Source of the DNA: a virus
Direction: 5' to 3' (one strand)
Length of the DNA: 64,000 nt
Virus record (IMG/VR): IMGVR_UViG_3300046809_000224
Span: 3,434-67,433 of that record
Position numbers and translations under genes: made by a program. The notes under the pieces were generated by a model. It worked only from the letters and a program-made list of their open reading frames with translations, ran no database searches and was not told where the DNA came from. Shown here one piece after another: positions 953 to 47,120 of this stretch (the stretch's first letter is position 1; each line of letters starts with the position of its first letter).

Positions 953-1270
953 ATTCTGTATTTCCCACATTATTACGCGCCGAATCCAGAGACCCGACAC
1001 TCTTATGCTATTTGCCAGTTTTAGTGCGCGCAAGGGACAATAGCCAGCCAAAGAAGCCTAGGCGGGTGTTACGCTTGGGTTGCGATCCGGGCATATCGCA
1101 GCCCATCCTCGGCCCCACGCCCTCGCATACGTACTTGCCCACATATCCGCAGTAGCGACATTTCTTCACGTTGTCCATGCGTATTCCCCAATGTCATAGC
1201 GGCGGCATCTGGCAACCGACCAGCCAAGTTGATTCCTAGCGCGGCAAATGTGCAACGGCGGTCCAACGGC

Positions 1271-2206: not shown

Positions 2207-2294
2207 TGTTTGTCTGCCTCTGGTTATCACAGCATCCCTCAGGCGTTGGATTCTAGCCCATAACCCGTGGTTTATCGACAGCGCACTCGGCCCC

Positions 2295-3075: not shown

Positions 3076-3340
3076 CGGACGCCTGCCGCACGTGTGCGCC
3101 GAACGTCTCCATGAACTGCAGCACACGATTGAATTCTTCTTCCGTCAAAGCCATGCGAGCCGCGCCGACGAACGCAACGTGCGGTCCCATCTTCCGCGGT
3201 TCCTTGCCGCCCGTATATTTGCGCCACTGCTGATCGCTCCCCAGCCAGAACGCCTCGGCCATCTCCTTCCCGGTCGCATTGCGACGGCGCTTGAGCTCCG
3301 CCAGGTCTTCTGTCGATGGTTCGTTGAATTGGATTGGCAT
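3059..3340 (-). CDS. XRE/KorC-like HTH transcriptional regulator
   Basis: EDLAELKRRRNATGKEMAEAFWLGSDQQWRKYTGG HTH pattern. Confidence 0.75.
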   Translation of the reverse strand: MPIQFNEPSTEDLAELKRRRNATGKEMAEAFWLGSDQQWRKYTGGKEPRKMGPHVAFVGAARMALTEEEFNRVLQFMETFGAHVRQASDGEEG

Positions 3341-3442
3341 GTCTTCTGGGCAGTGCGCGTTCGACGCGCGTGCGAAAGCTGATTTTCATTGGATCGTCCT
3401 ATCGGGTTGTTCGGGTCGCGCGGTGCGCTACCTCTGGAACGT

Positions 3443-3472
3443 ATATTAGCCCCCTAGGGTTTATCCCGTCAA
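3443..3472 (-). promoter_or_regulatory. sigma70-type promoter with palindrome CCCTAGGG in the spacer
   Basis: TTGACG-18nt-TAATAT on minus strand; palindrome at 3452-3459. Confidence 0.6.
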
Positions 3473-3501
3473 GTGCCTGAGTGTGAAATTTTTGCGGCAA
3501 T

Positions 3502-3536
3502 GAAAAAGCCGCCGAGCTTTCGCAGGGCGGCTGTCT
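3502..3536 (-). terminator. Intrinsic terminator
   Basis: AGCCGCC..GGCGGCT stem followed by T-tract on minus strand. Confidence 0.65.
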
Positions 3537-3590
3537 TACGCCGATCGCGCCGATGATACCGTAGGCATTGAGATGTCGATTCAGAAATCC

Positions 3591-3845
3591 TTATTCTTCA
3601 TCGGGACTCGCTTTCCGATCGTAGCTGTCACTTTGCGATTCGGATATCAAGCGGAACTTGCGTCGCCTCTCGAATTGATCCCGCACGCGATCGCTAGATC
3701 GGACCACGGCAGCCAACGACTCAAGCAACTCTCCTTCTCTCTCTGACAGCCGCCTGATCTCCCGTCGCTGCAGGATCAATACAGCAAGCAGTGCAATGAC
3801 CAATGCTACGAGGGCGATGTAAACGGCCATCATGGTAGTCGACAC
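3591..3845 (-). CDS. Small single-pass membrane protein with coiled-coil tail
   Basis: N-terminal hydrophobic helix, charged C-terminus, directly downstream of the antitoxin. Confidence 0.55.
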   Translation of the reverse strand: MSTTMMAVYIALVALVIALLAVLILQRREIRRLSEREGELLESLAAVVRSSDRVRDQFERRRKFRLISESQSDSYDRKASPDEE

Positions 3846-3847
3846 CC

Positions 3848-4144
3848 TCAGCTTGCATGCTCAGGCGTCACGCTTAATCTTACGCCCAGCGCATGAAGCA
3901 CCTTAAGTACGGTGTCATACCGCGGCTTGGCTCCTGGCGCCAGCGCTTTGTACAGGCTCTCGCGCCCTAAGCCGGCATCGGCCGCAACCTTGGCCATACC
4001 GCGCGCCTTGGCGACATCGGCGATTGCCGCAAGCAGAAGTTCGGGATCGCCTTCCTCAAGCACGGCATTGATGTATTCGGAGATCGTTTCCTCGCTATCG
4101 AGGTAGTCCGATGCGTCGAACCGAGAGACTTTGATCTGATTCAT
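3848..4144 (-). CDS. Addiction module antitoxin (HI1420-like HTH)
   Basis: FDASDYLDSEE...IADVAKARGMAKVAADAGLGRESLYKAL..GAKPRYDTV signature. Confidence 0.9.
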   Translation of the reverse strand: MNQIKVSRFDASDYLDSEETISEYINAVLEEGDPELLLAAIADVAKARGMAKVAADAGLGRESLYKALAPGAKPRYDTVLKVLHALGVRLSVTPEHAS

Positions 4145-4169
4145 TTCTCACTCCTATGAGAAAGGGCTA

Positions 4170-4466
4170 TCAGCCCTGTATCTGCTTCCACATCGCTTTG
4201 GCGCGCTGGATATCAGCTTTTTGCGTGGACTTGTCGCCACCACACAGCAGCAGATAAACGACGCGACCTTCGCGAGCGAAGTAAACGCGATAGCCGGGGC
4301 CGAAGTCGATCTTCAGTTCCGACACACCATCAACCAGCACCTTGTATTCACCGAAGTTGCCCAGCTCCGCACGACGGATGCGAGCGACGATCTTCGCGCG
4401 CGCCTTGAGGTCGTTCAGGCCGCTGAGCCATTCGCTGAATTCGTAGGTTTGGTTGATCGTGTTCAT
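4170..4466 (-). CDS. RelE/ParE-family toxin (HI1419-like)
   Basis: FSEWLSGLNDLKARAKIVARIRRAELGNFG...ELKIDFGPGYRVYF...LLLCGGDKSTQKADI. Confidence 0.9.
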   Translation of the reverse strand: MNTINQTYEFSEWLSGLNDLKARAKIVARIRRAELGNFGEYKVLVDGVSELKIDFGPGYRVYFAREGRVVYLLLCGGDKSTQKADIQRAKAMWKQIQG

Positions 4467-4476
4467 GTGAGATATT

Positions 4477-4492
4477 GTATCCGAACGGATAC
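4477..4492. promoter_or_regulatory. Palindromic operator of the TA operon
   Basis: GTATCCG-AA-CGGATAC just upstream of the toxin ATG. Confidence 0.65.
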
Positions 4493-4522
4493 GGAAAGCA
4501 AGCATTTTATAACACGACCAAC

Positions 4523-4549
4523 AGCCACCTTCCGGTGGCTTTTTTATTT
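4523..4549 (+). terminator. Intrinsic terminator
   Basis: AGCCACC-TTCC-GGTGGCT followed by TTTTTATTT. Confidence 0.7.
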
Positions 4550-4560
4550 CCGGGGCTCCC

Positions 4561-4863
4561 TTGAACCATCCACATCCGCACGGCGGCGATCGCATCACCG
4601 CCCTGGAGCAGCGCATGAGCACGATCGAACAACAGGCCTATGACTGGCGCGCCGAACTATCCGCGAACACAGAAGCGACGTTGCGCGTCGAGTCGAATAC
4701 GAAAGAACTAGTCGAGTTGCTGAAGCTTGCCAAAGGCGGCATCGGCTTCTTCACGGCGACCGGTCGCGTGCTTCGCAAGCTGGTGGTGTGGTTCGGCCCG
4801 TTCATCGCGTTTGCGGCGGCCGTCTGGGGTCTCATGCATGGCAAGTGGCCGGGGCAAGGATGA
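4561..4863 (+). CDS. Holin/antiholin-like protein with C-terminal TM
   Basis: Coiled coil plus C-terminal TM; stop overlaps the endolysin start. Confidence 0.55.
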   Translation: MNHPHPHGGDRITALEQRMSTIEQQAYDWRAELSANTEATLRVESNTKELVELLKLAKGGIGFFTATGRVLRKLVVWFGPFIAFAAAVWGLMHGKWPGQG

Positions 4864-5306
4864 ACGTCGCCCTTCTCGAGGCCGAACTGCGCCGCGACGA
4901 AGGCGTCAGGTATTCGATCTACCTCGACAGCCTGGGCGTGCCGACGGTTGGTTGTGGCCACAACGTAAAAGTCTCGCCGTTGCCCGCTGGCTGGTCCTGT
5001 CCGCTCACCGACGGTCAGGTTGATCAACTGCTCTCGCGCGACATTGCAACCACTCTCGTAAAGCTCGACAAAGCCCTGCCGTGGTGGCGCTCGCTTGATG
5101 AAGTGCGCCAGCGCGTCGTCGCTAACATGTGCTTCAACCTCGGCATCGGCGGCCTGCTCGGCTTCAAGAACACGTTGGCAGCGATGCAGCGCGGATCGTA
5201 TGCCGTCGCTGCGGCCGGAATGCTTAGTTCCAAGTGGGCCGGTCAAGTCGGTGCACGCGCCAAGCGGCTCGCGCAGGCGATGGAGTCTGGAACCATGCCG
5301 ACCTGA
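4860..5306 (+). CDS. Endolysin, GH24/T4-type lysozyme
   Basis: DEGVRYSIYLDSLGVPTVGCGH with E-x8-D-x5-T triad; NMCFNLG; SKWAGQVGARA. Confidence 0.92.
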   Translation: MNVALLEAELRRDEGVRYSIYLDSLGVPTVGCGHNVKVSPLPAGWSCPLTDGQVDQLLSRDIATTLVKLDKALPWWRSLDEVRQRVVANMCFNLGIGGLLGFKNTLAAMQRGSYAVAAAGMLSSKWAGQVGARAKRLAQAMESGTMPT

Positions 5307-5405
5307 ATATCTCTCTGGCGCATATTTTAATTTTATTCGTCTCCCGAATATTATCCCCCGCGATCACTTCGCAGGGTATAACCCTTGCCCGCGGGCCTTC
5401 CGTCA

Positions 5406-7160
5406 ATGGCGCAAACAGTCGTCACACTCACGGTTAGTGGATCGGGAAACTGGACGCCTCCGGCCAACTGCTCGTCCATCGACCTCCTTGAAACCTGGGG
5501 CGCGTCTGGTGGCGCATCTGGCGATGAGAACTTCGGGGCTGGTGGGGCCGGTGCTGGCGCATATTCAGCCATCAGCAACCTGCCCGTTACTGCGGGGACG
5601 CCGATACCGTACAACATCGGAGCGGCGGGAACCTCCGGTGACGGTGTAAGCGGAACGGCCGGCGGGGACACATGGTTTGGTAGCGCCGTCGCTGCGTCAG
5701 CAAATGTCCTTGCCAAAGGCGGTAGTCCTGGCTCAGATGGCTGGTCTGCGGGTGCTCTTGGTGGGCTGGGTGGGCAGGCCTCCGCGGGCATCGGAACAGT
5801 CAAATTCTCTGGTGGCAATGGCGGAAAGGGAAACGTCAACCCGGCTGGCACTGGCGGTCCCGGAGGTGGTGGTGGCGGTGCCGCTGGCCCACACGGCAAC
5901 GGCGTCAACGGTGCGGATGCTGCTGTAAGCGTCACAGGCGCGCAGGGTGGCGCAGGAGACAATGGTTCTGGCGGTGCGGCGGGGAATGGTGGCGGCACAA
6001 CCGGTAATGGCTCCGCAGGCGCGGCCAACGCAAACGGGGGCGGAGGTGGTGGAGGCGGATCCGGTCGTGATAACGGCGTCGCATCGTCAGGTGGTGCGGG
6101 TGGCTTTCCAGGTGGTGCACCGGGTGGCGGGTCGAACATTGGAGGATCGTCTGGCGGACTACCAGCTGGAGGCCAGATACGCATCACCTACACGCCGGCA
6201 TCGGCTGGCGTAACAGGAGCGGGCGCATCTACGCAGGCGACCAACGCTTCCTCGGCGGCCGGCTCTATCGCCGCTTCCGGAGTAGCAGCCACCACGCAGC
6301 GCGTCAATGCCTCGACCGCTTCGGGAAGCGTTGCAATCTCCGGTTCCGCGTCTCGCACTCAGCAGGCGAACACCGATGCGGGGGCGGGCTCAGTCTCGAT
6401 TGCGGGCACCGCGGCAAGCACGCAGGCCGCAAACACCTCTGCCAGCGTTGGAAAGCTTTCGGCACTCGGCACTGCAGCATCAACCCAGGCTGGCAATGCA
6501 TCGGCTGCTTCGGGCCTCGCCAAGATTTCTGGCTCAGGCGCATCGACTCAGCCGACGAACAGCAGCGCCGCATCTGGCGCATCTGCTATTTCCGGAGCGG
6601 GGACAAGCACTCAGGCTTCAAACGCTTCGAGCGCAGCCGGCACCACCGGCAGCACTATCGGCGGGACAGGTTCCAGCGCTCAGTCTCCGAATGCATCGGC
6701 CGCAGTGGGCGCCTTGTCGATTGCTGGCATAGCCTCGCCAGCGCAAAAGCCAGCGTCATCGGCCGCATCGGGCAATCTCAGCATCGCCGGATCGGGGGCT
6801 TCCTATGCGGCGCCGAATCTCGATGCAGGGTCCGGTCTCGTCGGGATCATTGCAACCGGCGCATCGACTCAGGCGCACGACATCTCAGGCGCATCGGGAA
6901 GCACCGCGCCTCCCGTTGTGGGCGCGGGAAGCGGCATTCAGCAATCAGACACATCGTCGGCCGCTGGGCACATTGGCGCGCAGTCCTATCCCGTTGATCC
7001 TAATTTCTACGTTCAGATTCCCGCTCGCGCTGTCTGCGTGTCATGTCTCAAACATGACTTCTACGTCGCTGGCCCGCACCGGGATTTCTTCGTTCAATCG
7101 CCGGGGCGCATGTTCTGCGTCACTGCCCCTTCACGATCCTTCTACGTGCAGTGCAAATAA
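5406..7160 (+). CDS. Glycine-rich fibre-like virion protein with ~19-aa repeats
   Basis: Gly-rich N-terminal domain followed by about 13 xGxxASTQxxNxSxAxG repeats. Confidence 0.7.
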   Translation: MAQTVVTLTVSGSGNWTPPANCSSIDLLETWGASGGASGDENFGAGGAGAGAYSAISNLPVTAGTPIPYNIGAAGTSGDGVSGTAGGDTWFGSAVAASANVLAKGGSPGSDGWSAGALGGLGGQASAGIGTVKFSGGNGGKGNVNPAGTGGPGGGGGGAAGPHGNGVNGADAAVSVTGAQGGAGDNGSGGAAGNGGGTTGNGSAGAANANGGGGGGGGSGRDNGVASSGGAGGFPGGAPGGGSNIGGSSGGLPAGGQIRITYTPASAGVTGAGASTQATNASSAAGSIAASGVAATTQRVNASTASGSVAISGSASRTQQANTDAGAGSVSIAGTAASTQAANTSASVGKLSALGTAASTQAGNASAASGLAKISGSGASTQPTNSSAASGASAISGAGTSTQASNASSAAGTTGSTIGGTGSSAQSPNASAAVGALSIAGIASPAQKPASSAASGNLSIAGSGASYAAPNLDAGSGLVGIIATGASTQAHDISGASGSTAPPVVGAGSGIQQSDTSSAAGHIGAQSYPVDPNFYVQIPARAVCVSCLKHDFYVAGPHRDFFVQSPGRMFCVTAPSRSFYVQCK

Positions 7161-7513
7161 TGATTCCAATCTCCCTGCAATTCGACTGGAAGGACCCGCG
7201 TGAAACCGCAGTGCTCACCTTCGATGCGACGCTCATGCTCGCGAGCGGAGAAACGCTGACGGGCACGCCTACGGCCCAGATCACGACAGTCACAGGCACA
7301 GATGCAACGCCGTCGCTGGTGCTGTCTGGCGTGATCGTCAACTCCGCCCCGCTGTCCGTCGCTGGCAAGACCATCGCAGTCGGGAGTGCCGTTCAGGCTG
7401 TCGCATCTGGCGGCAACTTCTCAAGCGCGTATCTGATCGCGATCACCTGCACCACTTCGAACCCGAACAAGACGCTCGTCCTGAAAGCGACGTTACCTCT
7501 AGCTGCGCAGTAA
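7160..7513 (+). CDS. Putative fibre adaptor protein
   Basis: KDPxE..LTFD...L..GETL motif of phage fibre-adaptor-like proteins; coupled to the upstream gene. Confidence 0.55.
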   Translation: MIPISLQFDWKDPRETAVLTFDATLMLASGETLTGTPTAQITTVTGTDATPSLVLSGVIVNSAPLSVAGKTIAVGSAVQAVASGGNFSSAYLIAITCTTSNPNKTLVLKATLPLAAQ

Positions 7514-7532
7514 TCCCAGCCCACTACCGAAC

Positions 7533-7560
7533 AAGCCCTCCATGTGAGGGCTTTTTTATT
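7533..7560 (+). terminator. Intrinsic terminator
   Basis: AAGCCCTC..GAGGGCTT plus T-tract. Confidence 0.75.
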
Positions 7561-7575
7561 CCCGAAGGAATTTAG

Positions 7576-7989
7576 ATGGCATCAAACCTCAAGTACAGCG
7601 CCGTCCTGAAGAACGCGCAGCAGGCGGCTATTCGAACGAGTTTGGGCGCAAGCGCGCTCATCAACATCTATAGCGGCACGCAGCCGGCGAGCCCTGATAC
7701 CGCGATCACATCGCAGGTCTTGCTCGCGACGCTTACGTGCAGCGCCACCTTTGGCACTGAATCCGGAGGCGTCGAAACGCTGAACGCCATCGCCGCCGGC
7801 ACTGGTACGGCAGGAGCTGGATCGGGCGGCACGCTCGCCACCTGGTTCCGCATGACAACTTCGGGCGGCACCGCGCACGTGGACGGCACCGTTGGCACGT
7901 CTGGTTGTGATTTGAATCTTGGCTCGGCCACGATTTCGACGGGCGTGCAGGTGTCGGTGTCGTCGTGGACCATTGCGAACGCAAACTAG
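7576..7989 (+). CDS. Conserved phage structural-type protein
   Basis: AAGGA RBS; IYSGTQPASPD...LLATL...ATWFR...DGTVG pattern. Confidence 0.7.
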   Translation: MASNLKYSAVLKNAQQAAIRTSLGASALINIYSGTQPASPDTAITSQVLLATLTCSATFGTESGGVETLNAIAAGTGTAGAGSGGTLATWFRMTTSGGTAHVDGTVGTSGCDLNLGSATISTGVQVSVSSWTIANAN

Positions 7990-7990
7990 T

Positions 7991-8356
7991 ATGCCGATCC
8001 TCAAACACCTAGTCGATGCTGCCAAGGGCAAGCATCCGATCACTACTGCGCGCTCGGGTCACTGGCCTACGGTGCGCAAGCAGCATTTGGCGCTCCATCC
8101 GGTTTGTGAAGTCTGCGGAGGCTCCGAGAAATTGGAAGTCCATCATCGCCGCCCCTTCCATTTGCATCCCGATCTCGAGCTAGATCCGTCCAATCTGGTG
8201 ACGCTCTGCGAATCGAAAAAGAGTGGCGTCAATTGCCATCTCTGGTTCGGCCATCTCGGGAATTTCCGCAGTTTCAACGTCGACGTCCTGCTCGACGCCG
8301 CCATCTGGCTCGGCAAGCTCAAGAGCCGCCCTTTATCCGACAAGGAGCAAGAGTGA
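7991..8356 (+). CDS. HNH endonuclease
   Basis: CEVC...EVHH...NLVTLC...NCH. Confidence 0.85.
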   Translation: MPILKHLVDAAKGKHPITTARSGHWPTVRKQHLALHPVCEVCGGSEKLEVHHRRPFHLHPDLELDPSNLVTLCESKKSGVNCHLWFGHLGNFRSFNVDVLLDAAIWLGKLKSRPLSDKEQE

Positions 8357-8568
8357 ACCTGTCCAACATCTCTCCAGTAACGCAAAAGCTGCTTGTAGGC
8401 GGTGTTCTGTTCGCGGCCTGGTCGTATCTCGTCTATACGGGCAAAGTCCCGGCGACGGATTACGTCGAAAACATCAAGATTGGCCTTGGCGGTCTCGGCC
8501 TCTATCACGTCGTGACCAACTCGGGCACGAAGAAGGCCGACGACTCACCGACGCCGCCCGCGGCATGA
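8353..8568 (+). CDS. Small two-TM holin-like protein
   Basis: GTG start after AAGGAG; two hydrophobic segments, charged C-terminus. Confidence 0.55.
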   Translation: MNLSNISPVTQKLLVGGVLFAAWSYLVYTGKVPATDYVENIKIGLGGLGLYHVVTNSGTKKADDSPTPPAA

Positions 8569-8870
8569 AATCCGCCCTGCTGGTGCTATGCCTAACCGGC
8601 TGTGCTGGCCAAGCCGCCTACTCGGTCAAGCCGTTCTATGAGCCCAGCTTGCAACGCATGGTCTGTTGCGAGGCCGTTGCGCTCAACTCCAAAGACATCA
8701 GCGCCCTCTCCTTTGACCTGACGACCACCGCTGATGGTGTAGTGACGGTCCACTTCAACGAGACCGGCGTAGGCGCTACCGCACCCGTTACAGCCCAAGG
8801 CGCCGTCATCTCCAACGTCGCAAACGCAGCCGGCCAAGCTGCCGCGGCTATCGTCAAACTCACTCCCTAG
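8565..8870 (+). CDS. Lipoprotein (possible spanin-like)
   Basis: MKSALLVLCLTGC lipobox. Confidence 0.65.
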   Translation: MKSALLVLCLTGCAGQAAYSVKPFYEPSLQRMVCCEAVALNSKDISALSFDLTTTADGVVTVHFNETGVGATAPVTAQGAVISNVANAAGQAAAAIVKLTP

Positions 8871-8880
8871 GATCATCGAA

Positions 8881-9333
8881 ATGAAGAAGATCATGCTGCT
8901 CGCGGCAGGCCTTGTCGCGCTCTCGCTGACCGCCTGCAACGGCTCCGCCCCTACCCTGACGTTTGCTCAACAGGTAAGCATCGCCTGTGGCGCCGCCAAC
9001 GGCGAAATCGCAATCCTGAAGGGCGACGGCGTATTCACTGGTGGCGCGGAAAAGACGCTGACCGATACCGTTCAACCCGCAGTCGACAAGGCATGCTCTG
9101 CCGGTGCGTCGGTTGCCAAGCCGGACCTTCAGCCGGTCGTGAATGCGACGCTGCCGCTCATCAAGTCACTGGTGGACTCGTCGTCGCTGTCACCTGACAA
9201 GATCAAGGCCGCCGACGCTGCGATTGATACGGGCGTGCTGGCGTTCAACATTGCGATCAGCCTTGCGCCTGTCGGGACGGCTACCGCTCCGGTCGCCGCG
9301 TCCACGCCTCTTGCCGGTGCGCCGCTGCAATGA
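8881..9333 (+). CDS. Lipoprotein
   Basis: MKKIMLLAAGLVALSLTAC lipobox. Confidence 0.75.
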   Translation: MKKIMLLAAGLVALSLTACNGSAPTLTFAQQVSIACGAANGEIAILKGDGVFTGGAEKTLTDTVQPAVDKACSAGASVAKPDLQPVVNATLPLIKSLVDSSSLSPDKIKAADAAIDTGVLAFNIAISLAPVGTATAPVAASTPLAGAPLQ

Positions 9334-9698
9334 AAGCCAAGATCATTCGCGACAGCGAAGGGTTGTTCTACGGCATCAAGTGGTTGTGCCCCGGGTGCGC
9401 TTCTGTTGGCCGGATAGGGGTTCACATCTTGCCGGTGAGTTGGTTGCCGCCTAGGGAGTCGGTGGAGTCGCCGCACGTAGCCGGAAAGCCGCACTGGTCG
9501 TTTAACGGCGACATGGAGCGCCCAGTCTTTGGGCCGAGCGTTCTTAGTCAATGGGATGAAGGCCCGGATCGTAGCCACAAGGTTTGCCACTCCTTCGTAG
9601 GCTGCAACGGCGCGCAGCCGGGGCAAATCATCTTCCTCGGCGATTGCACTCACAAACTCGCAGGCCAGACAGTCGATCTTCCGGAGATTGACCAATGA
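9330..9698 (+). CDS. DUF6527-like Cys/His protein
   Basis: CPGC...H...WSFNGD..P.F.PSVL...CHSFV...FLGDCTHKLAGQTVDLP. Confidence 0.7.
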   Translation: MKAKIIRDSEGLFYGIKWLCPGCASVGRIGVHILPVSWLPPRESVESPHVAGKPHWSFNGDMERPVFGPSVLSQWDEGPDRSHKVCHSFVGCNGAQPGQIIFLGDCTHKLAGQTVDLPEIDQ

Positions 9699-10084
9699 GC
9701 GCGTTTCTGTCCGGCCTCGAAGTCGAGCTAGTTAGCGATGCCACGAACAGCGGGCGCGGCACTTGGCGACTCACTGCACCACTGGTGTATCAGTCTGACG
9801 TGGCGCAGCAGACGTTCACCGTGCCCAAGGGAAGTCTCACGGATTTTGCTTCGGTACCGCGCATCGCCGTTGCCTTCCTGCTAACGGGCGATACGGCCCA
9901 TGAAGCCTCTGCTCTGCACGACTGGCTGTACGGATCTCACGTCGTACCGCGGAGCGTGGCAGACGCTGTTCTGCGCGAGGCGGCGCTGGTTTCCGGCGTG
10001 CCGGTATGGCGAGCATTTCTGCTTTGGGCCGGCGTTCGCATTGGTGGCGGTGGCTCCCATTGGAACGGACCCGCAACCGCTTGA
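9695..10084 (+). CDS. DUF1353 family protein
   Basis: VPKGSLTDFASVPR, ASALHDWLY, ADAVLREA, GVRIGG. Confidence 0.85.
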   Translation: MSAFLSGLEVELVSDATNSGRGTWRLTAPLVYQSDVAQQTFTVPKGSLTDFASVPRIAVAFLLTGDTAHEASALHDWLYGSHVVPRSVADAVLREAALVSGVPVWRAFLLWAGVRIGGGGSHWNGPATA

Positions 10085-10155
10085 CCTGCTGTACCCCGTC
10101 CGAGGCTTCGGTCTCGGACGCACCCCTCTTTAGCCTGCCCCTCGCAGCGCGTCAA

Positions 10156-10785
10156 TTACTTCCTACCCCATCCCAAAGCAGCCGGCCGTCCATATCCGGC
10201 GAACTTGATCTTAAGCCAATCCCTCGATCGGCCCCGCTGATACGTTGAGTCCATCCGCTTGGCGACCATGCCTTCCAAACCTAGCTCCTGGACGTGCTCA
10301 AAGACGAGCTTTCCTTCGTCCTCAATCCCGCTCGCATAGATCAGCGTACCGGTATTATCAAATGATTTTCGAAGATGTAGCTTGCGTTCAGTGAGTGGCA
10401 GAGCGCGTATGTCGGCGCCGTCGATGGATAAAGCGTCGAACACGTACAGCCTGGCCGGATCAGACTTCGCCGCGGCGCGGACATTCTTCGGCGTTTTCGT
10501 GACGGCACGCTGGCGAAGCCTGTCAAAGTCTGATCGCCCGGTGTCATCGTCGACGGTCAGCTCGGCATCCCATACGAAGTCTCCCGGTACACTTTCGACC
10601 GCCCGCACGACCTCTGGAAACGAACCGTTGAACAGATTGCCATTGCGACTCCAAAGCTTCACGTCGTCGCTCGCTTTCACGATCAGGCATCGAAACCCGT
10701 CGTACTTGAGCTCGAACAGCCAGTCAGGATCGGAGAATGGTCGCGGGTGGAGCGTAGCCAGCATCAAATTCGACGCGTCAATCAC
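10156..10785 (-). CDS. ATP-dependent DNA ligase, stand-alone adenylation domain (LigD/LigC-like)
   Basis: ELKYDGFR motif I, DAEL, LYVFD, GLEGMVAKR, YQRGRSRDWLKIK; no OB domain apparent. Confidence 0.88.
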   Translation of the reverse strand: MIDASNLMLATLHPRPFSDPDWLFELKYDGFRCLIVKASDDVKLWSRNGNLFNGSFPEVVRAVESVPGDFVWDAELTVDDDTGRSDFDRLRQRAVTKTPKNVRAAAKSDPARLYVFDALSIDGADIRALPLTERKLHLRKSFDNTGTLIYASGIEDEGKLVFEHVQELGLEGMVAKRMDSTYQRGRSRDWLKIKFAGYGRPAALGWGRK

Positions 10786-10966
10786 GGTAGCGAGACGTCC
10801 AAGCCCACGCAAGCGCCAGCTTCGCCCATGCGTCGTCTTTTGGGCAGCCCGTCACGTCACACAGGTGCTCGAAGTCCTCGGCAAGAGTATGTCCGTGCTC
10901 GTTGCGCTTGGTCGGATCAGGCAGCACGACTTCTAGAATCGCTTCAGGGTTGCGGTACTCGAACAT
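10778..10966 (-). CDS. Hypothetical protein
   Basis: AGGAGG RBS before ATG; coupled to the ligase. Confidence 0.6.
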   Translation of the reverse strand: MFEYRNPEAILEVVLPDPTKRNEHGHTLAEDFEHLCDVTGCPKDDAWAKLALAWAWTSRYRD

Positions 10967-10970
10967 GGCG

Positions 10971-11183
10971 TCACCTCCTTGTCCGCTCACCAGCAGAAAT
11001 CGGACCTTCGTCGTCGGCGCCTATGGCGCGAATCCACCCGGAACATCCGCGCTCCGGATTGGCGCGAACCTGTTTGAGTCCGTCACGCAAGCAAAGAGCG
11101 TGAGACCCGCCCGCGACATCGCCTCCCCAGCGCTCGCAGAGACGGCAGTGTCGGTCGGTAGTTGGACTGTCAAAGAGACCCAT
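10971..11183 (-). CDS. Small Cys-rich hypothetical protein
   Basis: CRLC...C...C; first gene after the LexA box. Confidence 0.6.
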   Translation of the reverse strand: MGLFDSPTTDRHCRLCERWGGDVAGGSHALCLRDGLKQVRANPERGCSGWIRAIGADDEGPISAGERTRR

Positions 11184-11190
11184 AGCTCGA

Positions 11191-11210
11191 TACTGTGTTT
11201 CCGTACAGTA
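11191..11210. promoter_or_regulatory. LexA (SOS) box overlapping a minus-strand -10 (TATACT)
   Basis: TACTGT-GTTTCCGT-ACAGTA. Confidence 0.8.
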
Positions 11211-11313
11211 TAGCGAGATTCACGGAGTCATGAGAATTCTGAAATTAGCAGAAAAAGACACACCAACGATTTCAGGTATCTCTATCGAAAACCTTGAAAC
11301 CCTTACTGGTGGC

Positions 11314-11367
11314 TGGTGCCGGGGACCGGACTTGAACCGGCAAGCCGTTAGGCGGCGGATTTTAAGT
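11314..11367 (-). other. att core: 3' half of tRNA-Leu(TAA), probable attP
   Basis: Reverse complement ACTTAAAATCCGCCGCCTAACGGCTTGCCGGTTCAAGTCCGGTCCCCGGCACCA: anticodon loop, long variable arm, T-arm, CCA; no 5' half; adjacent to integrase. Confidence 0.85.
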
Positions 11368-11443
11368 ATTGCTTCACTGTTCGTTTACACAGGCTTTAGG
11401 CTTGCCTGTCACGGTAAATCAAGGGTTTGCGGCTGTGCAAATG

Positions 11444-11495: not shown

Positions 11496-12488
11496 CTATC
11501 GCTTCTTGCCGATCTCGCTGATAGCGCTCGCAAGCTTGTCTGTGACCAGATGAGAATAGCGCTTCGTCGACACAACCGACTTGTGCCCGAGGACGCCGCC
11601 GACCGTGAACAAGTCGATTCCTGCGTTGATCATTTCCGACGCGGCACCGTGGCGCAGGTCATGAAATTTTGTCTCTGGATGGCCAGCCAATTCGCGCGCT
11701 TTCATCCACTCGGTCTCGAACTGCTTCACTGTGACCGTGAACCGAACCCGGCGCGCTAGTACGGCGATGCGCGGGTGAATTGGCACGATACGCGGTCGAC
11801 CATTCTTTGTGTCCGCCAGCGAGAACCCCTGCCGCGTCACTTTGGCCTTCATTATCTCACCGCGCCGCATGCCCGAGTAAAACGCTATGCGGATGGCCGC
11901 GCGAACCTGGCGATTCGTACAGGCGCGCGCGATCTCCAGCATCTCCTCTCGTTGAGGATAATGATGGCGCTCGTTGTTAACCGGGGGGATGACCATCCGA
12001 GACGTCTGGTCAACGTCCAGGCGGCCGACCTTGTGGGCATACTTGATAGCTGCCCGGATGTACGCGAGGATGTTCCGGATAGCGCCGTCGGTCAGTGGAC
12101 GCTTCGGGCGCCCGTTGCGGTCCTTGCTGGCCCGGAGATAACCGACAAACCCCTTCGACCAATTGTGCAGGTCAGTCGCGTCTTGATGCGAGTATTCCGG
12201 GCCCCACTTTTCCAGGATCTGGATTCGCTTCGTGGCGTCCTTCCAATCCCCGCTCTTGTCGGCCACGTGTGTGCTCACGCACTCGCCAATAGTTACGACC
12301 ACCTTCCTTGTTCCGCTGGCGAGCGCGTAAATCTCCGCTTCCCACTTCCTCGCTAACTCATCTGCTTCCTTGGCAGATATTCCCGGAGGGAGAAGCTTGG
12401 TTTTTCGAACCTGCTCACCCTCGACGACACGCTTGAACGTCCAGCGGAGGCGCTTGCGGCCGGCCTTTGTAATGGTTTGGATTGACAT
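11496..12488 (-). CDS. int: Tyrosine integrase
   Basis: SGMRRGE (R), TKNG (K), FHDLRH (HxxR), LGH, catalytic Y in TKRYSH. Confidence 0.95.
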   Translation of the reverse strand: MSIQTITKAGRKRLRWTFKRVVEGEQVRKTKLLPPGISAKEADELARKWEAEIYALASGTRKVVVTIGECVSTHVADKSGDWKDATKRIQILEKWGPEYSHQDATDLHNWSKGFVGYLRASKDRNGRPKRPLTDGAIRNILAYIRAAIKYAHKVGRLDVDQTSRMVIPPVNNERHHYPQREEMLEIARACTNRQVRAAIRIAFYSGMRRGEIMKAKVTRQGFSLADTKNGRPRIVPIHPRIAVLARRVRFTVTVKQFETEWMKARELAGHPETKFHDLRHGAASEMINAGIDLFTVGGVLGHKSVVSTKRYSHLVTDKLASAISEIGKKR

Positions 12489-15709: not shown

Positions 15710-15944
15710 TATTTGTCTCCTTGGCGAGGGCGCGGATAAAATCAACGCAATCGAGCACCGTCACTGGCGATAGAAACTGCGGACTCTTGTAATCGTCCGC
15801 AAGCGCCTTAGCACATCCCTCAAGCGCCGCGCGGTGGGATGCTTGCTCGATGGCGCGGGCGAAGTCGATTAACGCCGACTCACTAGCATCCAGATCGAAG
15901 CCTGTCGTTTCCAGATGCATGCGCTTGATGTCGTCGTCAGTCAT
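15702..15944 (-). CDS. Hypothetical protein
   Basis: DFARAIE and IRAL motifs common in phage early genes. Confidence 0.6.
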   Translation of the reverse strand: MTDDDIKRMHLETTGFDLDASESALIDFARAIEQASHRAALEGCAKALADDYKSPQFLSPVTVLDCVDFIRALAKETNNG

Positions 15945-16812
15945 GGCCGGCTCCGCTTGCAGGTTGCGCAGCGGTCAGATGGTTGCCAATCGCGTCAATA
16001 AGCTCCGTCTGCGCCGGGTGACCGTATTCGCTCGCATGCTGCTCAAGGTGATACTTGGCTTGACGCAAAAGTGTCAGCGCTACCTGTGTCTGTGCTGGTT
16101 GCGGGGCGGCGTAGACGATGCGCGTTGCGAAGCATGCCGGGTATTTCGCCATGTGGTCGTGCGCGTCTTTGCTGCAATCCGCCCACACGTCCTTATTCGC
16201 ATGGATATTTTCTCGACACTGATAGATCGGCTCCGCTGCCACCTTTTCGGCGGTGAGAGCGGCGCGCATTTCGTCCATGCTTGCCATGTCGAACATGCCC
16301 GGAAATGCTACTGCTGCATCGTCTTCATCTACCTGCGGTGGAATCCACTTGATGCCAGCGGCGTTGCATTTGGCGATGATCTGTGCATCCGTCAACGATT
16401 CATGCGGTGCTGTCGTGCTGGCTATGAAGTCATAAGCCTCGATTGCCCATGCGTTCAGCCGGTCAACATCATCCGGGCCGTAATTGCTCATGTTCAATTC
16501 GATGTAATCGGCCAGCAGCGCTTCCCGCTCCCCAATCGCCCCATTTGCGGCGTCCTCACCGATATGCTGAGCGCGGCGGTTCCACCCGGCAATTGCCGAT
16601 TGCTTGTGAAGACCATTCACCGCGTCAAAGCAACCCATCCGGTTGTTTGCGTAGCCGCGCTTTCCGTCAACGCCGCACACGGTGCACCGGACTAATGCAG
16701 CCCAGCGCGTAGCGTCCACTTCCTCGTATTCCTGCAACTCTGCTGCCCCGCCACAGAACGGGCACGGCTTCAGTTCCTCACCGCTCGGCTGAGTGTGATT
16801 TGTCGTGGTCAT
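15937..16812 (-). CDS. Lar-like Zn-ribbon mosaic protein
   Basis: ELKPCPFCGG...CTVCG...AIAGWNRR. Confidence 0.7.
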   Translation of the reverse strand: MTTTNHTQPSGEELKPCPFCGGAAELQEYEEVDATRWAALVRCTVCGVDGKRGYANNRMGCFDAVNGLHKQSAIAGWNRRAQHIGEDAANGAIGEREALLADYIELNMSNYGPDDVDRLNAWAIEAYDFIASTTAPHESLTDAQIIAKCNAAGIKWIPPQVDEDDAAVAFPGMFDMASMDEMRAALTAEKVAAEPIYQCRENIHANKDVWADCSKDAHDHMAKYPACFATRIVYAAPQPAQTQVALTLLRQAKYHLEQHASEYGHPAQTELIDAIGNHLTAAQPASGAGHD

Positions 16813-17522
16813 TTGCTGTCCTTTGCGCGAGCGAGTGTGTGGCGTGCGCGGCTCTGAACCCAATCTGCGAACTCCGTGTCATCTGCAAATGTCTCGTGGT
16901 CGAACCGCTTGGCATTGACGATGTTTTGCAGTTCCTTCACCGCCTCGTCTGCTTGCTCGGCGTCACCGCACGATTGCGCGGGAGCGGCGTATCCAATCTG
17001 CTCATACGCCTTGGCAATGACCTCGTGTGCCTTACCGCGGGCCTTGGAATCAGCCAGGGTCGAAGGCGTTTTTGTGAAGTGCTGCACCATCATTTGCAGC
17101 GTGTCGAGCAATTCACGTGTCAAGGCGTCCGCCGATTGCGCGGGAGCGGTGGGAAGGGGGCCAGTAACGCCAGCCAGCTCCCACGTCTCAGTCCTCAGAC
17201 GGTGCTCGATTTCCTCGCAGGCAAGATCAAAGACTGACTCGGCTTGCGTTGGGATTGCCGTACCTGATTTCGAGAACCCTTGCTGCCGAACGGCGGCCAC
17301 GATATGCAAGGCGCGCCGCTGCTCAAGCGCCACCGCGAGGTCAATCACGTCATCGGCCGTCACGGCAGGCTTGCTTGCAAGCAGGGCGCGTTGAGCCCAC
17401 TTGACGGCCTTGGTGAAGCTCTTCAGGTTGCACGGGCAATATGGGTTGTCGGTGCTGAACGTGTCGCGCCAGCCTTTCTCGATCTGCTCATTGGTAAGCA
17501 CTGCGTCTGTATCGGTATTCAT
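16809..17522 (-). CDS. Mosaic hypothetical phage protein
   Basis: Coupled ORF with AP-rich linkers. Confidence 0.6.
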   Translation of the reverse strand: MNTDTDAVLTNEQIEKGWRDTFSTDNPYCPCNLKSFTKAVKWAQRALLASKPAVTADDVIDLAVALEQRRALHIVAAVRQQGFSKSGTAIPTQAESVFDLACEEIEHRLRTETWELAGVTGPLPTAPAQSADALTRELLDTLQMMVQHFTKTPSTLADSKARGKAHEVIAKAYEQIGYAAPAQSCGDAEQADEAVKELQNIVNAKRFDHETFADDTEFADWVQSRARHTLARAKDSK

Positions 17523-23118: not shown

Positions 23119-23250
23119 TCAGTCAAGCGGCCCAAACACCGCCTCACGAAAGCGCAACCACGCTTCCTCATCCCTTTCCCGCTGCGCCGCCATCTGCTCG
23201 TCAAGCCATGCGCGGGTGATCTCTACCCATGCGTCAAGTTCCGTTTTCAT
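23119..23250 (-). CDS. Hypothetical 43-aa protein (not in ORF track)
   Basis: MKTELDAWVEITRAWLDEQ...; start overlaps the ACP-like stop. Confidence 0.5.
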   Translation of the reverse strand: MKTELDAWVEITRAWLDEQMAAQRERDEEAWLRFREAVFGPLD

Positions 23251-23495
23251 TTCACCCTCGCCGTCACGCAGTCAACAATGTCTCGCGCCGTCCTGAGCGC
23301 GTTCATTGCGTCGTCATCGATCTCAAACCCGAACTCGTCTTCGACAGTCATCGTGATTTCGAGCAGATCAAGATCGTCCATGCCGTACTCGACGGCCATC
23401 TGAGCGTCGAGATTCAAGCTGGCCGGCGTCGTGGCGAACTGCTCGGCGACGATGTGCCGCACCCGCTCCTCAACATTCCTCACTGCGGTTTCCAT
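23247..23495 (-). CDS. Acyl-carrier-protein homologue lacking the phosphopantetheine serine
   Basis: VEERVRHIVAEQF...GMDDLDLLEITMTVEDEFGFEIDD aligns with AcpP (IEERVKKIIGEQL...GADSLDTVELVMALEEEF.EIPD). Confidence 0.85.
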   Translation of the reverse strand: METAVRNVEERVRHIVAEQFATTPASLNLDAQMAVEYGMDDLDLLEITMTVEDEFGFEIDDDAMNALRTARDIVDCVTARVK

Positions 23496-23601
23496 GCTTC
23501 CCTCCGCTTGGGTTCGCGGTTGCGGCGCTCGTCGGCACCGCGCACAAATAAAATGAGCACGATGTTCGCGATCAGGATGATGGTTATCCAGTGGTAGGTG
23601 T

Positions 23602-23856
23602 TCATTTGGCCTCCAGAAGGGCGCGACCTTCATCCATAAACTTGAGAATGTCAGCGGCGTTGTTCATCGCGGTCCAATACAGCTTTTCTAGCATCGTGTC
23701 CGTCAGCGCTTTCGGCTGGCTGGCGGGCTTGGTGTCGACTTGCGTGAACATCGCGTCATGCCATGCGATCTGCCAGGTGAACCAATCGACGTTTATTCCG
23801 GCTTCGCGCTGCTGCTCGAAGCCTTCACGGCATGCATGCGGGTTAATGGTTTCCAT
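23602..23856 (-). CDS. Hypothetical protein
   Basis: Coupled ORF; WFTWQIAW. Confidence 0.55.
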   Translation of the reverse strand: METINPHACREGFEQQREAGINVDWFTWQIAWHDAMFTQVDTKPASQPKALTDTMLEKLYWTAMNNAADILKFMDEGRALLEAK

Positions 23857-23858
23857 GG

Positions 23859-24011
23859 TCAGCACCAGGCAATCAGATCAAGTTGGACATACTCCGAATC
23901 CAGCACCCTGCCCGTCCGCGTTACCCGGTCGATCCGGTAGAGGAAACCAAGGTGCGGGATCGCCTGCGTCGCTATCTCCATGATGCGGTGGACTGCTCTT
24001 TGAGGGGTCAT
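23859..24011 (-). CDS. Hypothetical 50-aa protein (not in ORF track)
   Basis: MTPQRAVHRIMEIAT...; ATGA overlap with upstream gene. Confidence 0.4.
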   Translation of the reverse strand: MTPQRAVHRIMEIATQAIPHLGFLYRIDRVTRTGRVLDSEYVQLDLIAWC

Positions 24012-24828: not shown

Positions 24829-24857
24829 ATCATAGATCAATTTGATTTGCTTTGCAA
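24829..24857 (-). promoter_or_regulatory. pL-like early promoter, with a boxA-like GATCTTTAAAAA downstream at 24752-24763
   Basis: TTGCAA-17nt-TATGAT on minus strand, overlapping ATCAATTTGAT. Confidence 0.65.
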
Positions 24858-24991
24858 AGCAAAACTTCATAAAAAGATTTGCTTGCACTGCAAAAATGTT
24901 TCTATCGGCTCGATAGGTCCGATAGAGCAAAAAGATTTAACAATCCGCTTCATTCGCCGCCTAGACTTCAGCGGTAGACAGGGAGAGCGCA

Positions 24992-25253: not shown

Positions 25254-26012
25254 CTAGTTGCCGCCGGCCAGGCCTGAGCCTGAGCGGTAGATCACCTCGC
25301 CGGCAATCTGCAGGCTCTCCAGCTGGTCTGCATGAATCACCTTGTCCGGGAACTCCGGATTGTATGAGTGCAGCCTGAGCGCCCCTTCCGGCTCTTTGAA
25401 TATCTGCTTGACCAAGGGCTCGTCCTCAAAGACAACTGCGTAGATCAGACCGTCTTTCACCCGGGTCTTGCTCGAGCAGATCATCATCATGTCGCGGTTG
25501 AACAGGTATGGCTCCATGCTGCGGCCGTGTACCTGGGCGAGCTTGCAATCTTGCGGTCGTACTCCCAAGGCGCGGAAAAAACCAAGGTCAAACGGAAGCG
25601 CCTTCTTCTGCCTTACTTCCCACTGAATCACGCCAGTCCCCGCCGAAAAACGATAGTCAAACCGGTCAATCCAGACCCGATCCTCATCGATCTCAAGATC
25701 CTCCGGCGCCTCCCAGGTGACTACATTACCTTGGTCGTCGGGAAGCAAACGCTTAATCAAGGCATCTGGTTGACTTGTTTTTGCCACATCGTTTTGCTCT
25801 GAACTGTGCTGTACGTCTAGCCACCCTTCAGGCCGCGCAAAGGCTGACTCGATCCGCCTGGCCAGCTTATCGCCAATGTTGCGAGTGGGCGCAGGCCCCA
25901 TAACCTGGTTGACCTGCTGCGTGCTGCTGTCGATCCTGCGGGCGAACTCCGCCGGCCCGTCCGTCATCAACGAACGTGCGTTCTCCAGCCTGATTTCCTT
26001 GACTGTTTTCAT
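25254..26012 (-). CDS. cI: CI-like repressor (HTH + S24 autopeptidase)
   Basis: N-terminal HTH, SAG cleavage site, GRSMEP Ser, VKQ Lys; divergent from cro. Confidence 0.92.
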   Translation of the reverse strand: MKTVKEIRLENARSLMTDGPAEFARRIDSSTQQVNQVMGPAPTRNIGDKLARRIESAFARPEGWLDVQHSSEQNDVAKTSQPDALIKRLLPDDQGNVVTWEAPEDLEIDEDRVWIDRFDYRFSAGTGVIQWEVRQKKALPFDLGFFRALGVRPQDCKLAQVHGRSMEPYLFNRDMMMICSSKTRVKDGLIYAVVFEDEPLVKQIFKEPEGALRLHSYNPEFPDKVIHADQLESLQIAGEVIYRSGSGLAGGN

Positions 26013-26083
26013 GGGCCGAATGATGGGCGCATCAATCATTTTGATCAACGTGCAAAAAGATTTGCTTTAGCACATCAAACCAC

Positions 26084-44360: not shown

Positions 44361-47120
<2,760 letters not shown>

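What the first reader, a model, noticed from the sequence alone, without database searches (positions are those of the whole stretch)
23247..23495. Phage-encoded pseudo-ACP: phosphopantetheine Ser replaced by Asp
Seen: an 82-aa acidic ACP homologue in the early left operon, with GMDDLD in place of GADSLD. Codon GAT (23373-23375) is at least two substitutions from any Ser codon, so a single error is unlikely; the ORF is intact with an RBS and coupled neighbours, and no PPTase or acyl enzyme is in the window. Known: the Ser is needed to carry acyl groups; ACP feeds fatty-acid and lipid A synthesis and LuxI-type AHL synthases, and binds SpoT, MukB and Tn7 TnsD. Inference: a non-loadable decoy whose Asp mimics the holo phosphate and titrates ACP partners, for host takeover or to block the stringent response, quorum sensing or ACP-dependent defence.
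Basis: partly seen in the sequence, partly recalled or inferred. Interest (0 to 1): 0.85.

Follow-up and report, generated by a model that had tools for sequence, protein, structure and literature searches.

The report
Phage acyl carrier protein lacking serine
A temperate phage of Burkholderia-type soil bacteria carries a small look-alike of acyl carrier protein in which aspartate replaces the serine that holds the cofactor, so it cannot carry fatty acids and probably acts by binding other proteins.

Summary
Window 23247-23495 (-) encodes an 82-aa protein with a confident ACP fold. Asp41 (GAT, 23373-23375) sits where the DSL serine should be.

This is not an error or a lone allele. All 12 nearest homologues lack Ser (11 Asp, 1 Tyr; identities measured for 8 of them, 53-79%). 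Their sister clade of 33 phage ACPs is all Ser. A second phage lineage made the same Ser-to-Asp change. dN/dS among Asp-type genes is 0.21-0.32. The acidic docking residues of helix II are kept. Position 65 switches with the site: Asn in Asp-types, Phe/Trp in Ser-types.

The phage record has no PPTase, ketosynthase, acyl-AMP ligase or malonyl transferase.

New context: the gene is an optional cassette in the early-left operon of Paraburkholderia-type prophages. It lies between a 41-aa membrane microprotein and a 43-aa single-helix microprotein. Sibling phages carry a Ser-type ACP, or no ACP, at that slot.

Function is inferred only: a non-loadable ACP mimic acting through protein binding. The host target is unknown. 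The E. coli apo-ACP target PlsB was absent from the three host-type genomes checked. I found no published precedent in phages. Verdict: a new variant of a known kind, interest about 0.6.

The parts
23247..23495 (-). Asp-type ACP-fold gene, 82 aa, pI 4.1
   Evidence: PF00550. AlphaFold2 pLDDT 91.8 with four helices. Foldseek top hits are ACPs, TM 0.84-0.91. pI.
23373..23375 (-). GAT codon for Asp41, at the position of the phosphopantetheine-bearing Ser and first residue of helix II
   Evidence: Asp in 12 of 13 rows of the clade.
23500..23505 (-). GGAGGG ribosome-binding site, 4 nt upstream of the ATG
   Evidence: Read.
23119..23250 (-). 43-aa acidic microprotein predicted as one long helix. Its start overlaps the ACP stop (ATGA).
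   Evidence: Family of 55 clusters. Invariant W8, D27, A30, F34. AlphaFold2 pLDDT 94.3, helix 4-42.
23480..23605 (-). 41-aa membrane-type microprotein ending in an F-V/I-R-G-A motif. It overlaps the ACP start by 16 nt and is coupled (ATGA) to the upstream ORF.
   Evidence: conserved upstream of the slot in the window, L094, L104 and L160-L164. No family match.
23602..23865 (-). 87-aa conserved early ORF upstream of the slot
   Evidence: Homologue in L160. No family match.
24829..24858 (-). Promoter-like site (TTGCAA-17-TATGAT), candidate leftward early promoter
   Evidence: Consensus match only: 2 found against 1.3 expected.
25254..26048 (-). CI-like repressor with S24 peptidase domain, which marks the immunity region
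   Evidence: PF00717 E 2.1e-18.

Best explanation
The gene encodes a folded ACP that is permanently unable to take the 4'-phosphopantetheine arm because Asp replaces the acceptor Ser. It is kept by selection as an accessory early gene of temperate Burkholderia/Paraburkholderia-type phages. Most likely it works purely by protein-protein binding. It keeps the acidic helix-II face that all ACP clients dock on, so it would occupy ACP-docking sites on one or more host proteins as a cargo-less competitor of host AcpP. Candidates are AcpS, fatty-acid or lipid A enzymes, or another ACP client. This would transiently disturb an ACP-dependent host process after infection or induction. Shown: fold, loss of Ser, conservation of Asp, purifying selection, retained docking residues, orphan status, early-operon cassette position. 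Inferred: that it binds host ACP clients, that Asp is needed as a negative charge, and the effect on the host.
For: Fold and site. Two discrete states: a clade of 12 rows (11 Asp, 1 Tyr; SH-aLRT 90) plus P0010 (Asp), against a sister clade of 33 rows that are all Ser (SH-aLRT 93). The tree was built with the site's own column left out. A second Ser-to-Asp lineage (P0167/L117, P0177) sits among Ser rows. dN/dS among the four Asp-type genes with DNA is 0.21-0.32, with dS 0.8-1.6. Docking residues in the 13 Asp-clade rows: D40 12/13, D43 13/13, E46 13/13, E52 13/13, D53 12/13, E54 13/13. The equivalent E. coli residues D35, E41 and E47/E48 make the ion pairs with AcpS (abstract of bioRxiv 10.1101/2025.01.28.635281). 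Coupled change next to the cofactor entrance: position 65 is Asn in 10 of 13 Asp-clade rows but Phe, Trp or Tyr in 27 of 32 sister Ser rows. Over all 106 rows, only 1 of 25 non-Ser rows is aromatic there, against 35 of 81 Ser rows. Ser-type loci use TCG or TCT (6 of 6), yet the replacements seen are Asp or Glu rather than the one-step neighbours Thr or Ala. No PPTase or acyl enzyme in the record. Precedent that an ACP without the arm can work by binding alone: Plasmodium mACP (abstract of PMC8547962).
Against: No binding or phenotype was tested, and no host partner is identified. Ser-type alleles sit in the same slot in sibling phages, so whatever the cassette does may not depend on being unloadable. 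Asp could also be held partly by helix N-capping rather than by charge mimicry. The gene is dispensable for this phage type: 0 of 5 partner-bearing Paraburkholderia prophages have it. Host AcpP is very abundant (0.25% of soluble protein in E. coli per PMC3896788), so simple competition needs high expression or a scarce target. PlsB, the E. coli target of apo-ACP toxicity, was found in 0 of 3 Burkholderia/Paraburkholderia genomes. SpoT is reported not to bind apo-ACP (passage of PMC3896788). My hit lists were retrieved with Asp-bearing queries, which slightly favours Asp-bearing hits. In the pattern-based viral set, only 5 of 68 aligned domains lack Ser (3 Asp, 1 Arg, 1 Tyr).
Confidence: 0.4

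Rival explanations
1. It is an adaptor or scaffold, not a competitor. The ACP fold serves as a small acidic binding module for a specific phage or host protein that is not a classical ACP client, as Ppant-less mitochondrial ACP does for Isd11-Nfs1 in Plasmodium. It may act together with the flanking microproteins.
For: Precedent in the abstract of PMC8547962. The gene is translationally coupled on both sides to conserved microproteins. Where the 43-aa helix gene occurs in loci found through ACP, it is directly adjacent, with a gap of 0-14 nt in 6 of 6 cases. By matching contig lengths, at least 11 of 55 helix-protein clusters share a contig with an ACP, 2 Asp-type and 9 Ser-type. This is a weak proxy.
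Against: The helix gene and the membrane microprotein stay adjacent without any ACP in 5 of 5 Paraburkholderia prophages, and one Asp-type locus (L095) lacks the helix gene. The pairing is therefore not obligate. Retention of the whole acidic helix-II ridge is what a generic ACP-client binder would keep.
Confidence: 0.25
2. It is an anti-defence or exclusion factor in an arms race. The acidic ACP-like protein blocks or triggers a host or rival-phage system, and the Ser and Asp alleles are alternative escape forms.
For: It is an optional cassette at a variable slot in the early operon, which holds nothing, a pilin-leader-like microprotein, a Ser-ACP or an Asp-ACP. The ACP core is 33-67% identical between flanks that are 90-97% identical. 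A natural variant contig replaces 607 nt here with 312 other letters. The protein is strongly acidic, pI 4.1, like known phage mimic proteins (the comparison is recalled). A Lar-like restriction-alleviation domain lies in the same operon.
Against: No match of this protein or 9 neighbours to 5027 PADLOC models. No defence system known to me depends on ACP. dN/dS of 0.2-0.3 shows purifying rather than diversifying selection within the Asp type.
Confidence: 0.12
3. It is a decaying auxiliary metabolic gene: a former carrier ACP that lost its Ser and drifts, with Asp tolerated only because it caps helix II.
For: Phage acpP genes are usually read as lipid-synthesis AMGs (passages of PMC8224337). 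Ser, Thr, Asp and Asn are all good helix N-caps (recalled). One clade member has Tyr.
Against: Asp is kept in 12 of 13 rows down to 51% identity, with dN/dS 0.21-0.32. No Ser, Thr or Asn occurs in the Asp clade and no Asp in the 33-row Ser clade. There is convergent Ser-to-Asp change with a convergent loss of the aromatic residue at position 65. The ORF is intact with a strong RBS in every copy seen.
Confidence: 0.08

Closest known systems
Bacterial housekeeping acyl carrier protein AcpP (PF00550; TIGR00517)
   Same: Four-helix fold, length, acidity, and the acidic helix-II docking residues. 38-39% identity to Burkholderia, Paraburkholderia and Cupriavidus AcpP. Solved ACPs superpose at 0.8-1.3 A.
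   Different: The acceptor Ser is Asp. It scores below the curated cut-off of all 16 NCBIfam ACP models listed (best 59.5 against 71 bits). It is phage-borne and orphan, and is changed at the pocket entrance (Met64, Asn65, Asp60 where AcpP has Ala, Glu, Pro).
Ser-type prophage ACPs of Burkholderiaceae (sister clade; e.g. L104, L102, L092)
   Same: Same slot in the same early-left operon of related prophages. In L092 the exonuclease is 87% and the repressor 67% identical. They share Tyr37, Met64 and the E-I/V-T/V-M helix II.
   Different: They keep DSL in 33 of 33 rows and carry Phe or Trp at position 65, so they are presumably loaded by the host PPTase. The window's protein cannot be.
Plasmodium falciparum mitochondrial ACP lacking the Ppant group (PMC8547962, abstract read)
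   Same: An ACP that has lost the prosthetic group yet is retained and works by binding partner proteins.
   Different: A eukaryotic organelle protein bound to Isd11-Nfs1. It has no sequence kinship beyond the fold family. No LYR-type partner is identified here, and here the replacement is Asp.
Phage or prophage 'acpP' auxiliary metabolic genes (phrog_5934; Ralstonia phage phiRSL1 ACP; roseobacter prophages, PMC8224337 passages)
   Same: Small ACP genes in phage genomes. phiRSL1 is the best cultured-phage match at 41% identity.
   Different: Those keep Ser, as do 63 of 68 aligned ACP domains in the 66 viral loci. Some sit beside fabG and fabF. This one cannot carry acyl groups, so the AMG reading does not apply.
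Toxicity of unmodified apo-ACP in E. coli (PMC3896788, passages read)
   Same: An unloaded ACP acting as an inhibitor of an ACP-dependent enzyme is an established effect.
   Different: The E. coli target, glycerol-3-phosphate acyltransferase PlsB, was not found in 3 of 3 Burkholderia/Paraburkholderia genomes. If the principle applies, the target must differ.

Membership tests
Acyl carrier protein, structural family (PF00550 PP-binding) | Sequence match above the Pfam gathering score | tested here: met
   45.5 bits against 20.8, residues 10-77 over the full model.
Acyl carrier protein, structural family (PF00550 PP-binding) | Four-helix ACP fold | tested here: met
   AlphaFold2 pLDDT 91.8. 93 PDB hits at E<=0.001; all listed top hits are ACPs.
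Functional carrier ACP (holo-ACP) | Ser in the D-S-L motif at the N-terminus of helix II, which accepts 4'-phosphopantetheine | tested here: not met
   Asp41 aligns to the Ser. Helix II starts at residue 41.
Functional carrier ACP (holo-ACP) | Meets NCBIfam ACP equivalog or subfamily cut-offs | tested here: not met
   16 of 16 listed models are below cut-off.
Functional carrier ACP (holo-ACP) | Actual absence or presence of the prosthetic group on the protein | not testable with these tools
   Needs mass spectrometry of the expressed protein.
Phage auxiliary lipid-synthesis module | Partner enzymes (PPTase, KS, AT, acyl-AMP ligase) in the same genome | tested here: not met
   0 matches for PF01648, PF00109, PF00698 and PF00501 in the 67,433-bp record, and the controls rang.
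Ppant-less binding ACP (Plasmodium mACP type) | Acceptor Ser lost but protein retained under selection | tested here: met
Ppant-less binding ACP (Plasmodium mACP type) | Binds and stabilises a defined partner without the arm | not testable with these tools
Known anti-phage defence or candidate defence proteins (PADLOC) | Match to any of 5027 models | tested here: not met
   0 families for this protein and 9 neighbours.

The most novel reading that the evidence does not exclude
Burkholderiaceae temperate phages carry a swappable early-gene cassette encoding ACP mimics in two fixed states: loadable (Ser with an aromatic lid) and charge-locked (Asp with Asn). The Asp form would be a constitutive 'phospho-mimic' of holo-ACP. 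It would hijack or blind a host ACP-sensing checkpoint, such as the SpoT-type stringent response, acyl-homoserine-lactone synthesis, or an as yet unknown ACP-dependent immunity. This would make ACP mimicry a new class of phage host-takeover or counter-defence strategy.
Probability: 0.2. Interest if true: 0.85.

Novelty: new variant of a known kind. Interest (0 to 1): 0.6.

Why it matters
Phage ACP genes are routinely annotated as lipid-synthesis auxiliary genes. This clade shows that some cannot carry anything and are nevertheless conserved, so that annotation is misleading for them.

If the protein is a cargo-less mimic of one of the most connected proteins in the bacterial cell, it offers a natural probe for which ACP interactions matter during infection. 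It would also be a possible lead for inhibiting ACP-dependent enzymes.

The system comes with built-in controls: a Ser-type allele, an Asp-type allele and an empty slot, all in near-identical genetic backgrounds.

Tried and rejected
- **Complex prediction.** The ACP-like protein (108-row alignment) with the 43-aa helix protein (5 rows) scored 0.00 against a mark of 0.32. The verdict was 'no answer', so I do not use it either way.
- **RNA evidence.** No RNA holder was listed among 24 runs, so expression is unknown.
- **Cultured relatives.** The 10-kb region has no megablast match in 50,697 phage records. The 43-aa protein has no tblastn match in phages. P0001 has no match in plasmids at 1e-10.
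- **GTDB species representatives.** The Asp-type profile found nothing above housekeeping AcpP level in 400 Burkholderiaceae genomes (1 more was not scored) or in 95 Burkholderia genomes. In 213 Paraburkholderia genomes it gave 4 matches. I read 3 of them and all are Ser-type; I did not recover the fourth (L091). The first genome-contig scan with the wider alignment returned only housekeeping AcpP loci.
- **ESM Atlas.** No usable hit for the 43-aa protein.
- **Two-gene module idea.** I first read ACP plus the 43-aa helix as an obligate pair. I rejected this after finding the helix gene without an ACP in 5 of 5 genomes.
- **PlsB as target.** Rejected for this host group.
- **Longer 128-aa ORF from 23633.** Rejected.
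- **Promoter and terminator scan.** At chance level.
- **Literature.** Seven searches found no paper on a Ser-less phage ACP. This covers only the held library.
- **Closed or unused tools.** I did not ask for any paper supplements.

Full report
**What is there**

Window 23247-23495 on the minus strand is an 82-aa ORF. A GGAGGG site lies 4 nt before its ATG.
- It matches Pfam PP-binding over the full model (E 8.9e-12, 45.5 bits against a cut-off of 20.8).
- It matches PHROG 5934 'acyl carrier protein'.
- It matches 106 distinct solved ACP sequences at E<=0.01.
- In the three printed alignments, query ...YGMDDLDLLE... lies under ...LGADSLDTVE.... Asp41 therefore stands where the phosphopantetheine-bearing Ser should be.
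- The codon is GAT at 23373-23375, at least two changes from any Ser codon.
- An AlphaFold2 model built on 108 sequences is confident (pLDDT 91.8). It shows the four ACP helices, with helix II beginning exactly at residue 41.
- Foldseek returns ACPs at TM 0.84-0.91 and rmsd 0.8-1.3 A.
- The protein falls below the curated cut-off of all 16 NCBIfam ACP models listed.

**Genome context**

The window is bases 3434-67433 of a 67,433-bp IMG/VR virus record rated complete by CheckV. It is a temperate phage with lambdoid layout:
- integrase at 11496-12488 (-);
- a leftward early operon holding an exonuclease, an Erf-like annealing protein and a Lar-like domain protein;
- an S24 repressor at 25254-26048 (-);
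- rightward, a replication initiator and a primase/helicase;
- then terminase, portal, head, tail sheath and baseplate genes.

The host is probably Burkholderia sensu lato.
- Named homologues come from Paraburkholderia and Burkholderia.
- A prophage in a Paraburkholderia genome (L092) shares an 87% identical exonuclease and a 67% identical repressor.
- Near-identical DNA is held by rhizosphere metagenome runs.

The record has no PPTase, ketosynthase, malonyl/acyl transferase or AMP-binding enzyme (all with positive controls). The ACP is therefore an orphan.

**Is the Asp real and selected?**

Yes, on several lines of evidence.

*Independent reads.* Contigs from three further runs cover the gene without any difference. 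A diverged relative in a fourth run has differences listed elsewhere in the gene but none at the Asp codon. The three identical runs may be one campaign.

*Nearest relatives.* The five closest database proteins (65-79% identity) and three more at 53-59% all have Asp. In that 10-sequence alignment Asp41 is invariant, while even the neighbouring Asp40 varies once.

*Tree.* I built a maximum-likelihood tree of 106 short homologues with the site's own column left out.
- The window falls in a 12-row clade (11 Asp, 1 Tyr; SH-aLRT 90).
- P0010 (Asp) and a 33-row clade that is entirely Ser (SH-aLRT 93) join it.
- Together they form a 46-row phage-type clade (SH-aLRT 89).
- With only 83 columns many forks are open, and the tool warns of this.

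*A second origin.* A second Asp pair (P0167, which is the ORF of viral locus L117, and P0177) lies among Ser rows elsewhere in the tree. On this tree the Asp state needs between 2 changes (forced by well-supported branches) and 10 changes (most parsimonious).

*Selection.* Pairwise dN/dS among the four Asp-type genes for which I have DNA is 0.21-0.32. dS is 0.8-1.6, so it is close to saturation.

*Codon argument.* Ser-type relatives use TCG or TCT (6 of 6).
- One-step mutational neighbours of those codons would be Thr, Ala, Pro, Leu or Trp.
- Of the 25 non-Ser rows in the tree set, 20 are Asp, 3 Glu, 1 Tyr and 1 Arg. One Pro appeared in another list.
- The two states do not mix. There is no Ser, Thr or Asn in the Asp clade, and no Asp in the Ser clade.
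- This argues against a mere helix-capping constraint and for two distinct functional states.

*Caveat.* The lists were retrieved with Asp-bearing queries, which adds a few bits to Asp-bearing hits. In the viral set, found by patterns that do not include the site, 63 of 69 ACP domains are Ser, 3 Asp, 1 Arg, 1 Tyr and 1 unaligned.

**What else changed with the Ser**

I compared the 13 Asp-clade rows with 32 sister Ser rows.
- The acidic ridge of helix II is kept: D40 12/13, D43 13/13, E46 13/13, E52 13/13, D53 12/13, E54 13/13.
- The E. coli equivalents D35, E41 and E47/E48 are the residues that ion-pair with AcpS (abstract of bioRxiv 10.1101/2025.01.28.635281). That these residues also form the general docking face for ACP clients is my recollection of the ACP literature.
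- Position 65 lies at the end of helix III, beside the channel the prosthetic arm takes in E. coli ACP (position recalled, not measured here). It is Asn in 10 of 13 Asp-clade rows and Phe, Trp or Tyr in 27 of 32 Ser rows.
- The second Asp lineage has Ala or Asn at position 65, where its Ser relatives have Phe.
- Positions 36, 60 and 70-72 also switch between the two clades.

I read this as evidence that the Ser-type proteins really carry the arm, and that the Asp-type has been remodelled around its absence while keeping the docking face.

**The slot**

The gene is tightly packed between small ORFs.
- An 87-aa ORF ends in ATGA with a 41-aa membrane-type microprotein (23480-23605).
- That microprotein overlaps the ACP start by 16 nt.
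- The ACP stop overlaps (ATGA) the start of a 43-aa ORF (23119-23250).

The 43-aa protein is real.
- It has 55 database clusters, and all the named ones are from Paraburkholderia.
- It has four invariant residues across 49 sequences.
- It is predicted with pLDDT 94 as one long helix.

Among 69 loci that contain an ACP homologue, the helix gene follows directly (gap 0-14 nt) in six: three Asp-type (window, L094, L117) and three Ser-type (L104, L106, L110).

L094 (Asp) and L104 (Ser) are 90-97% identical in DNA through the end of the membrane-microprotein gene, the first 12 ACP codons and the start of the helix gene. They are only 33-67% identical through the ACP core. This is an allelic cassette swap.

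When I searched 213 Paraburkholderia species genomes with the helix protein instead, 5 had it. In all 5 the membrane microprotein is next to or close upstream of the helix gene with no ACP anywhere within 1.5 kb. In three of them a second microprotein with a pilin-leader-like N-terminus sits between the two.

One metagenome contig replaces 607 nt here (ACP, membrane microprotein and part of the 87-aa ORF) with 312 other letters.

So the ACP is an optional, exchangeable cassette at a variable slot. It is not an obligate partner of the helix protein, and I withdrew that idea.

**How it most likely works**

*Shown:* a folded ACP that cannot be loaded at the canonical site, kept under purifying selection, with its docking face intact, expressed from an early-operon position, and without any enzyme of its own.

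*Inferred:* it acts by binding.

My preferred reading (about 0.4) is a cargo-less competitor at ACP-docking sites of host proteins.

The target is open.
- Unmodified ACP is a documented inhibitor in E. coli through the glycerol-3-phosphate acyltransferase. SpoT is reported not to bind apo-ACP (passages of PMC3896788).
- PlsB was not found in 3 of 3 Burkholderia/Paraburkholderia genomes, while the E. coli control rang. That particular target is therefore unlikely.
- A scarce client such as AcpS would be easier to titrate than the abundant Fab enzymes. This is inference.

*Rivals:*
- an adaptor role for a non-client partner, as in Plasmodium Ppant-less mACP (abstract of PMC8547962): 0.25;
- an anti-defence or exclusion role, suggested by the cassette behaviour: 0.12, with no PADLOC match;
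- a decaying metabolic gene: 0.08, contradicted by the conservation.

**Comparison with what is known, and novelty**

The protein is a member of the ACP structural family. It fails the defining feature of a functional carrier, so I do not file it as an acyl carrier.

Prophage acpP genes are discussed in the literature as lipid-synthesis auxiliary genes (passages of PMC8224337).

Seven full-text searches found no paper describing a Ser-less phage ACP. The nearest concept is the apicomplexan mACP. The searches cover only the held library, and I did not ask for any supplements.

I rate it a new variant of a known kind. It is of moderate to good interest, because nature supplies matched Ser, Asp and empty alleles that make the question directly testable.

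**Limits**
- No binding, modification, expression or phenotype data exist.
- The single complex-prediction job gave no verdict.

Noticed in passing
window 23119-23865 (-); L160-L164; L094, L104: The slot between a conserved membrane microprotein (ending F-V/I-R-G-A) and the 43-aa helix gene has variable content across related prophages. It holds nothing (L160, L161), a second microprotein with a pilin-leader-like N-terminus (R-K-Q-R-G-F-T; L162-L164), a Ser-type ACP or an Asp-type ACP.
   Followed up: partly
window 23250 to 23858: One contig of run X6 joins 23250 to 23858, with 312 other letters in place of the 607 nt that hold the ACP, the membrane microprotein and part of the 87-aa ORF. This is a natural replacement variant. 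The letters were not shown.
   Followed up: no
L099 5989-6225; protein P0193: Another phage ACP lineage lacks the Ser in a different way: Arg in L099 and Glu in P0193. It also has an altered helix II (...D-A-L-L-I-V-M...) and no 43-aa gene downstream.
   Followed up: no
proteins P0222, P0216, P0046, P0127, P0140, P0143, P0109, P0111: Asp or Glu at the Ser site also occurs in scattered non-phage-clade ACP homologues. These include a 122-aa protein named from the fungus Linnemannia elongata and one from Actinomadura. Their contexts are unknown.
   Followed up: no
L112, second ACP-like domain near 7432: A 165-kb viral contig carries two ACP-like domains. One has Ser and one has Tyr at the site.
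   Followed up: no
window 45192-47120 (+): A 642-aa protein in the head-gene block matches phrog_6216 strongly. Its N-terminal part also matches MutT/NUDIX hydrolase families (E 1.2e-22).
   Followed up: no
window 15937-16863 (-): A 308-aa early-operon protein has a Lar-like restriction-alleviation domain at residues 27-113.
   Followed up: no
window 1-11400: Left of the integrase, three large ORFs were scanned against PHROGs: 1271-2341 and 5385-7160 had no match, and 2295-3389 had a weak match of unknown function. This part may be host flank or cargo rather than core phage.
   Followed up: no
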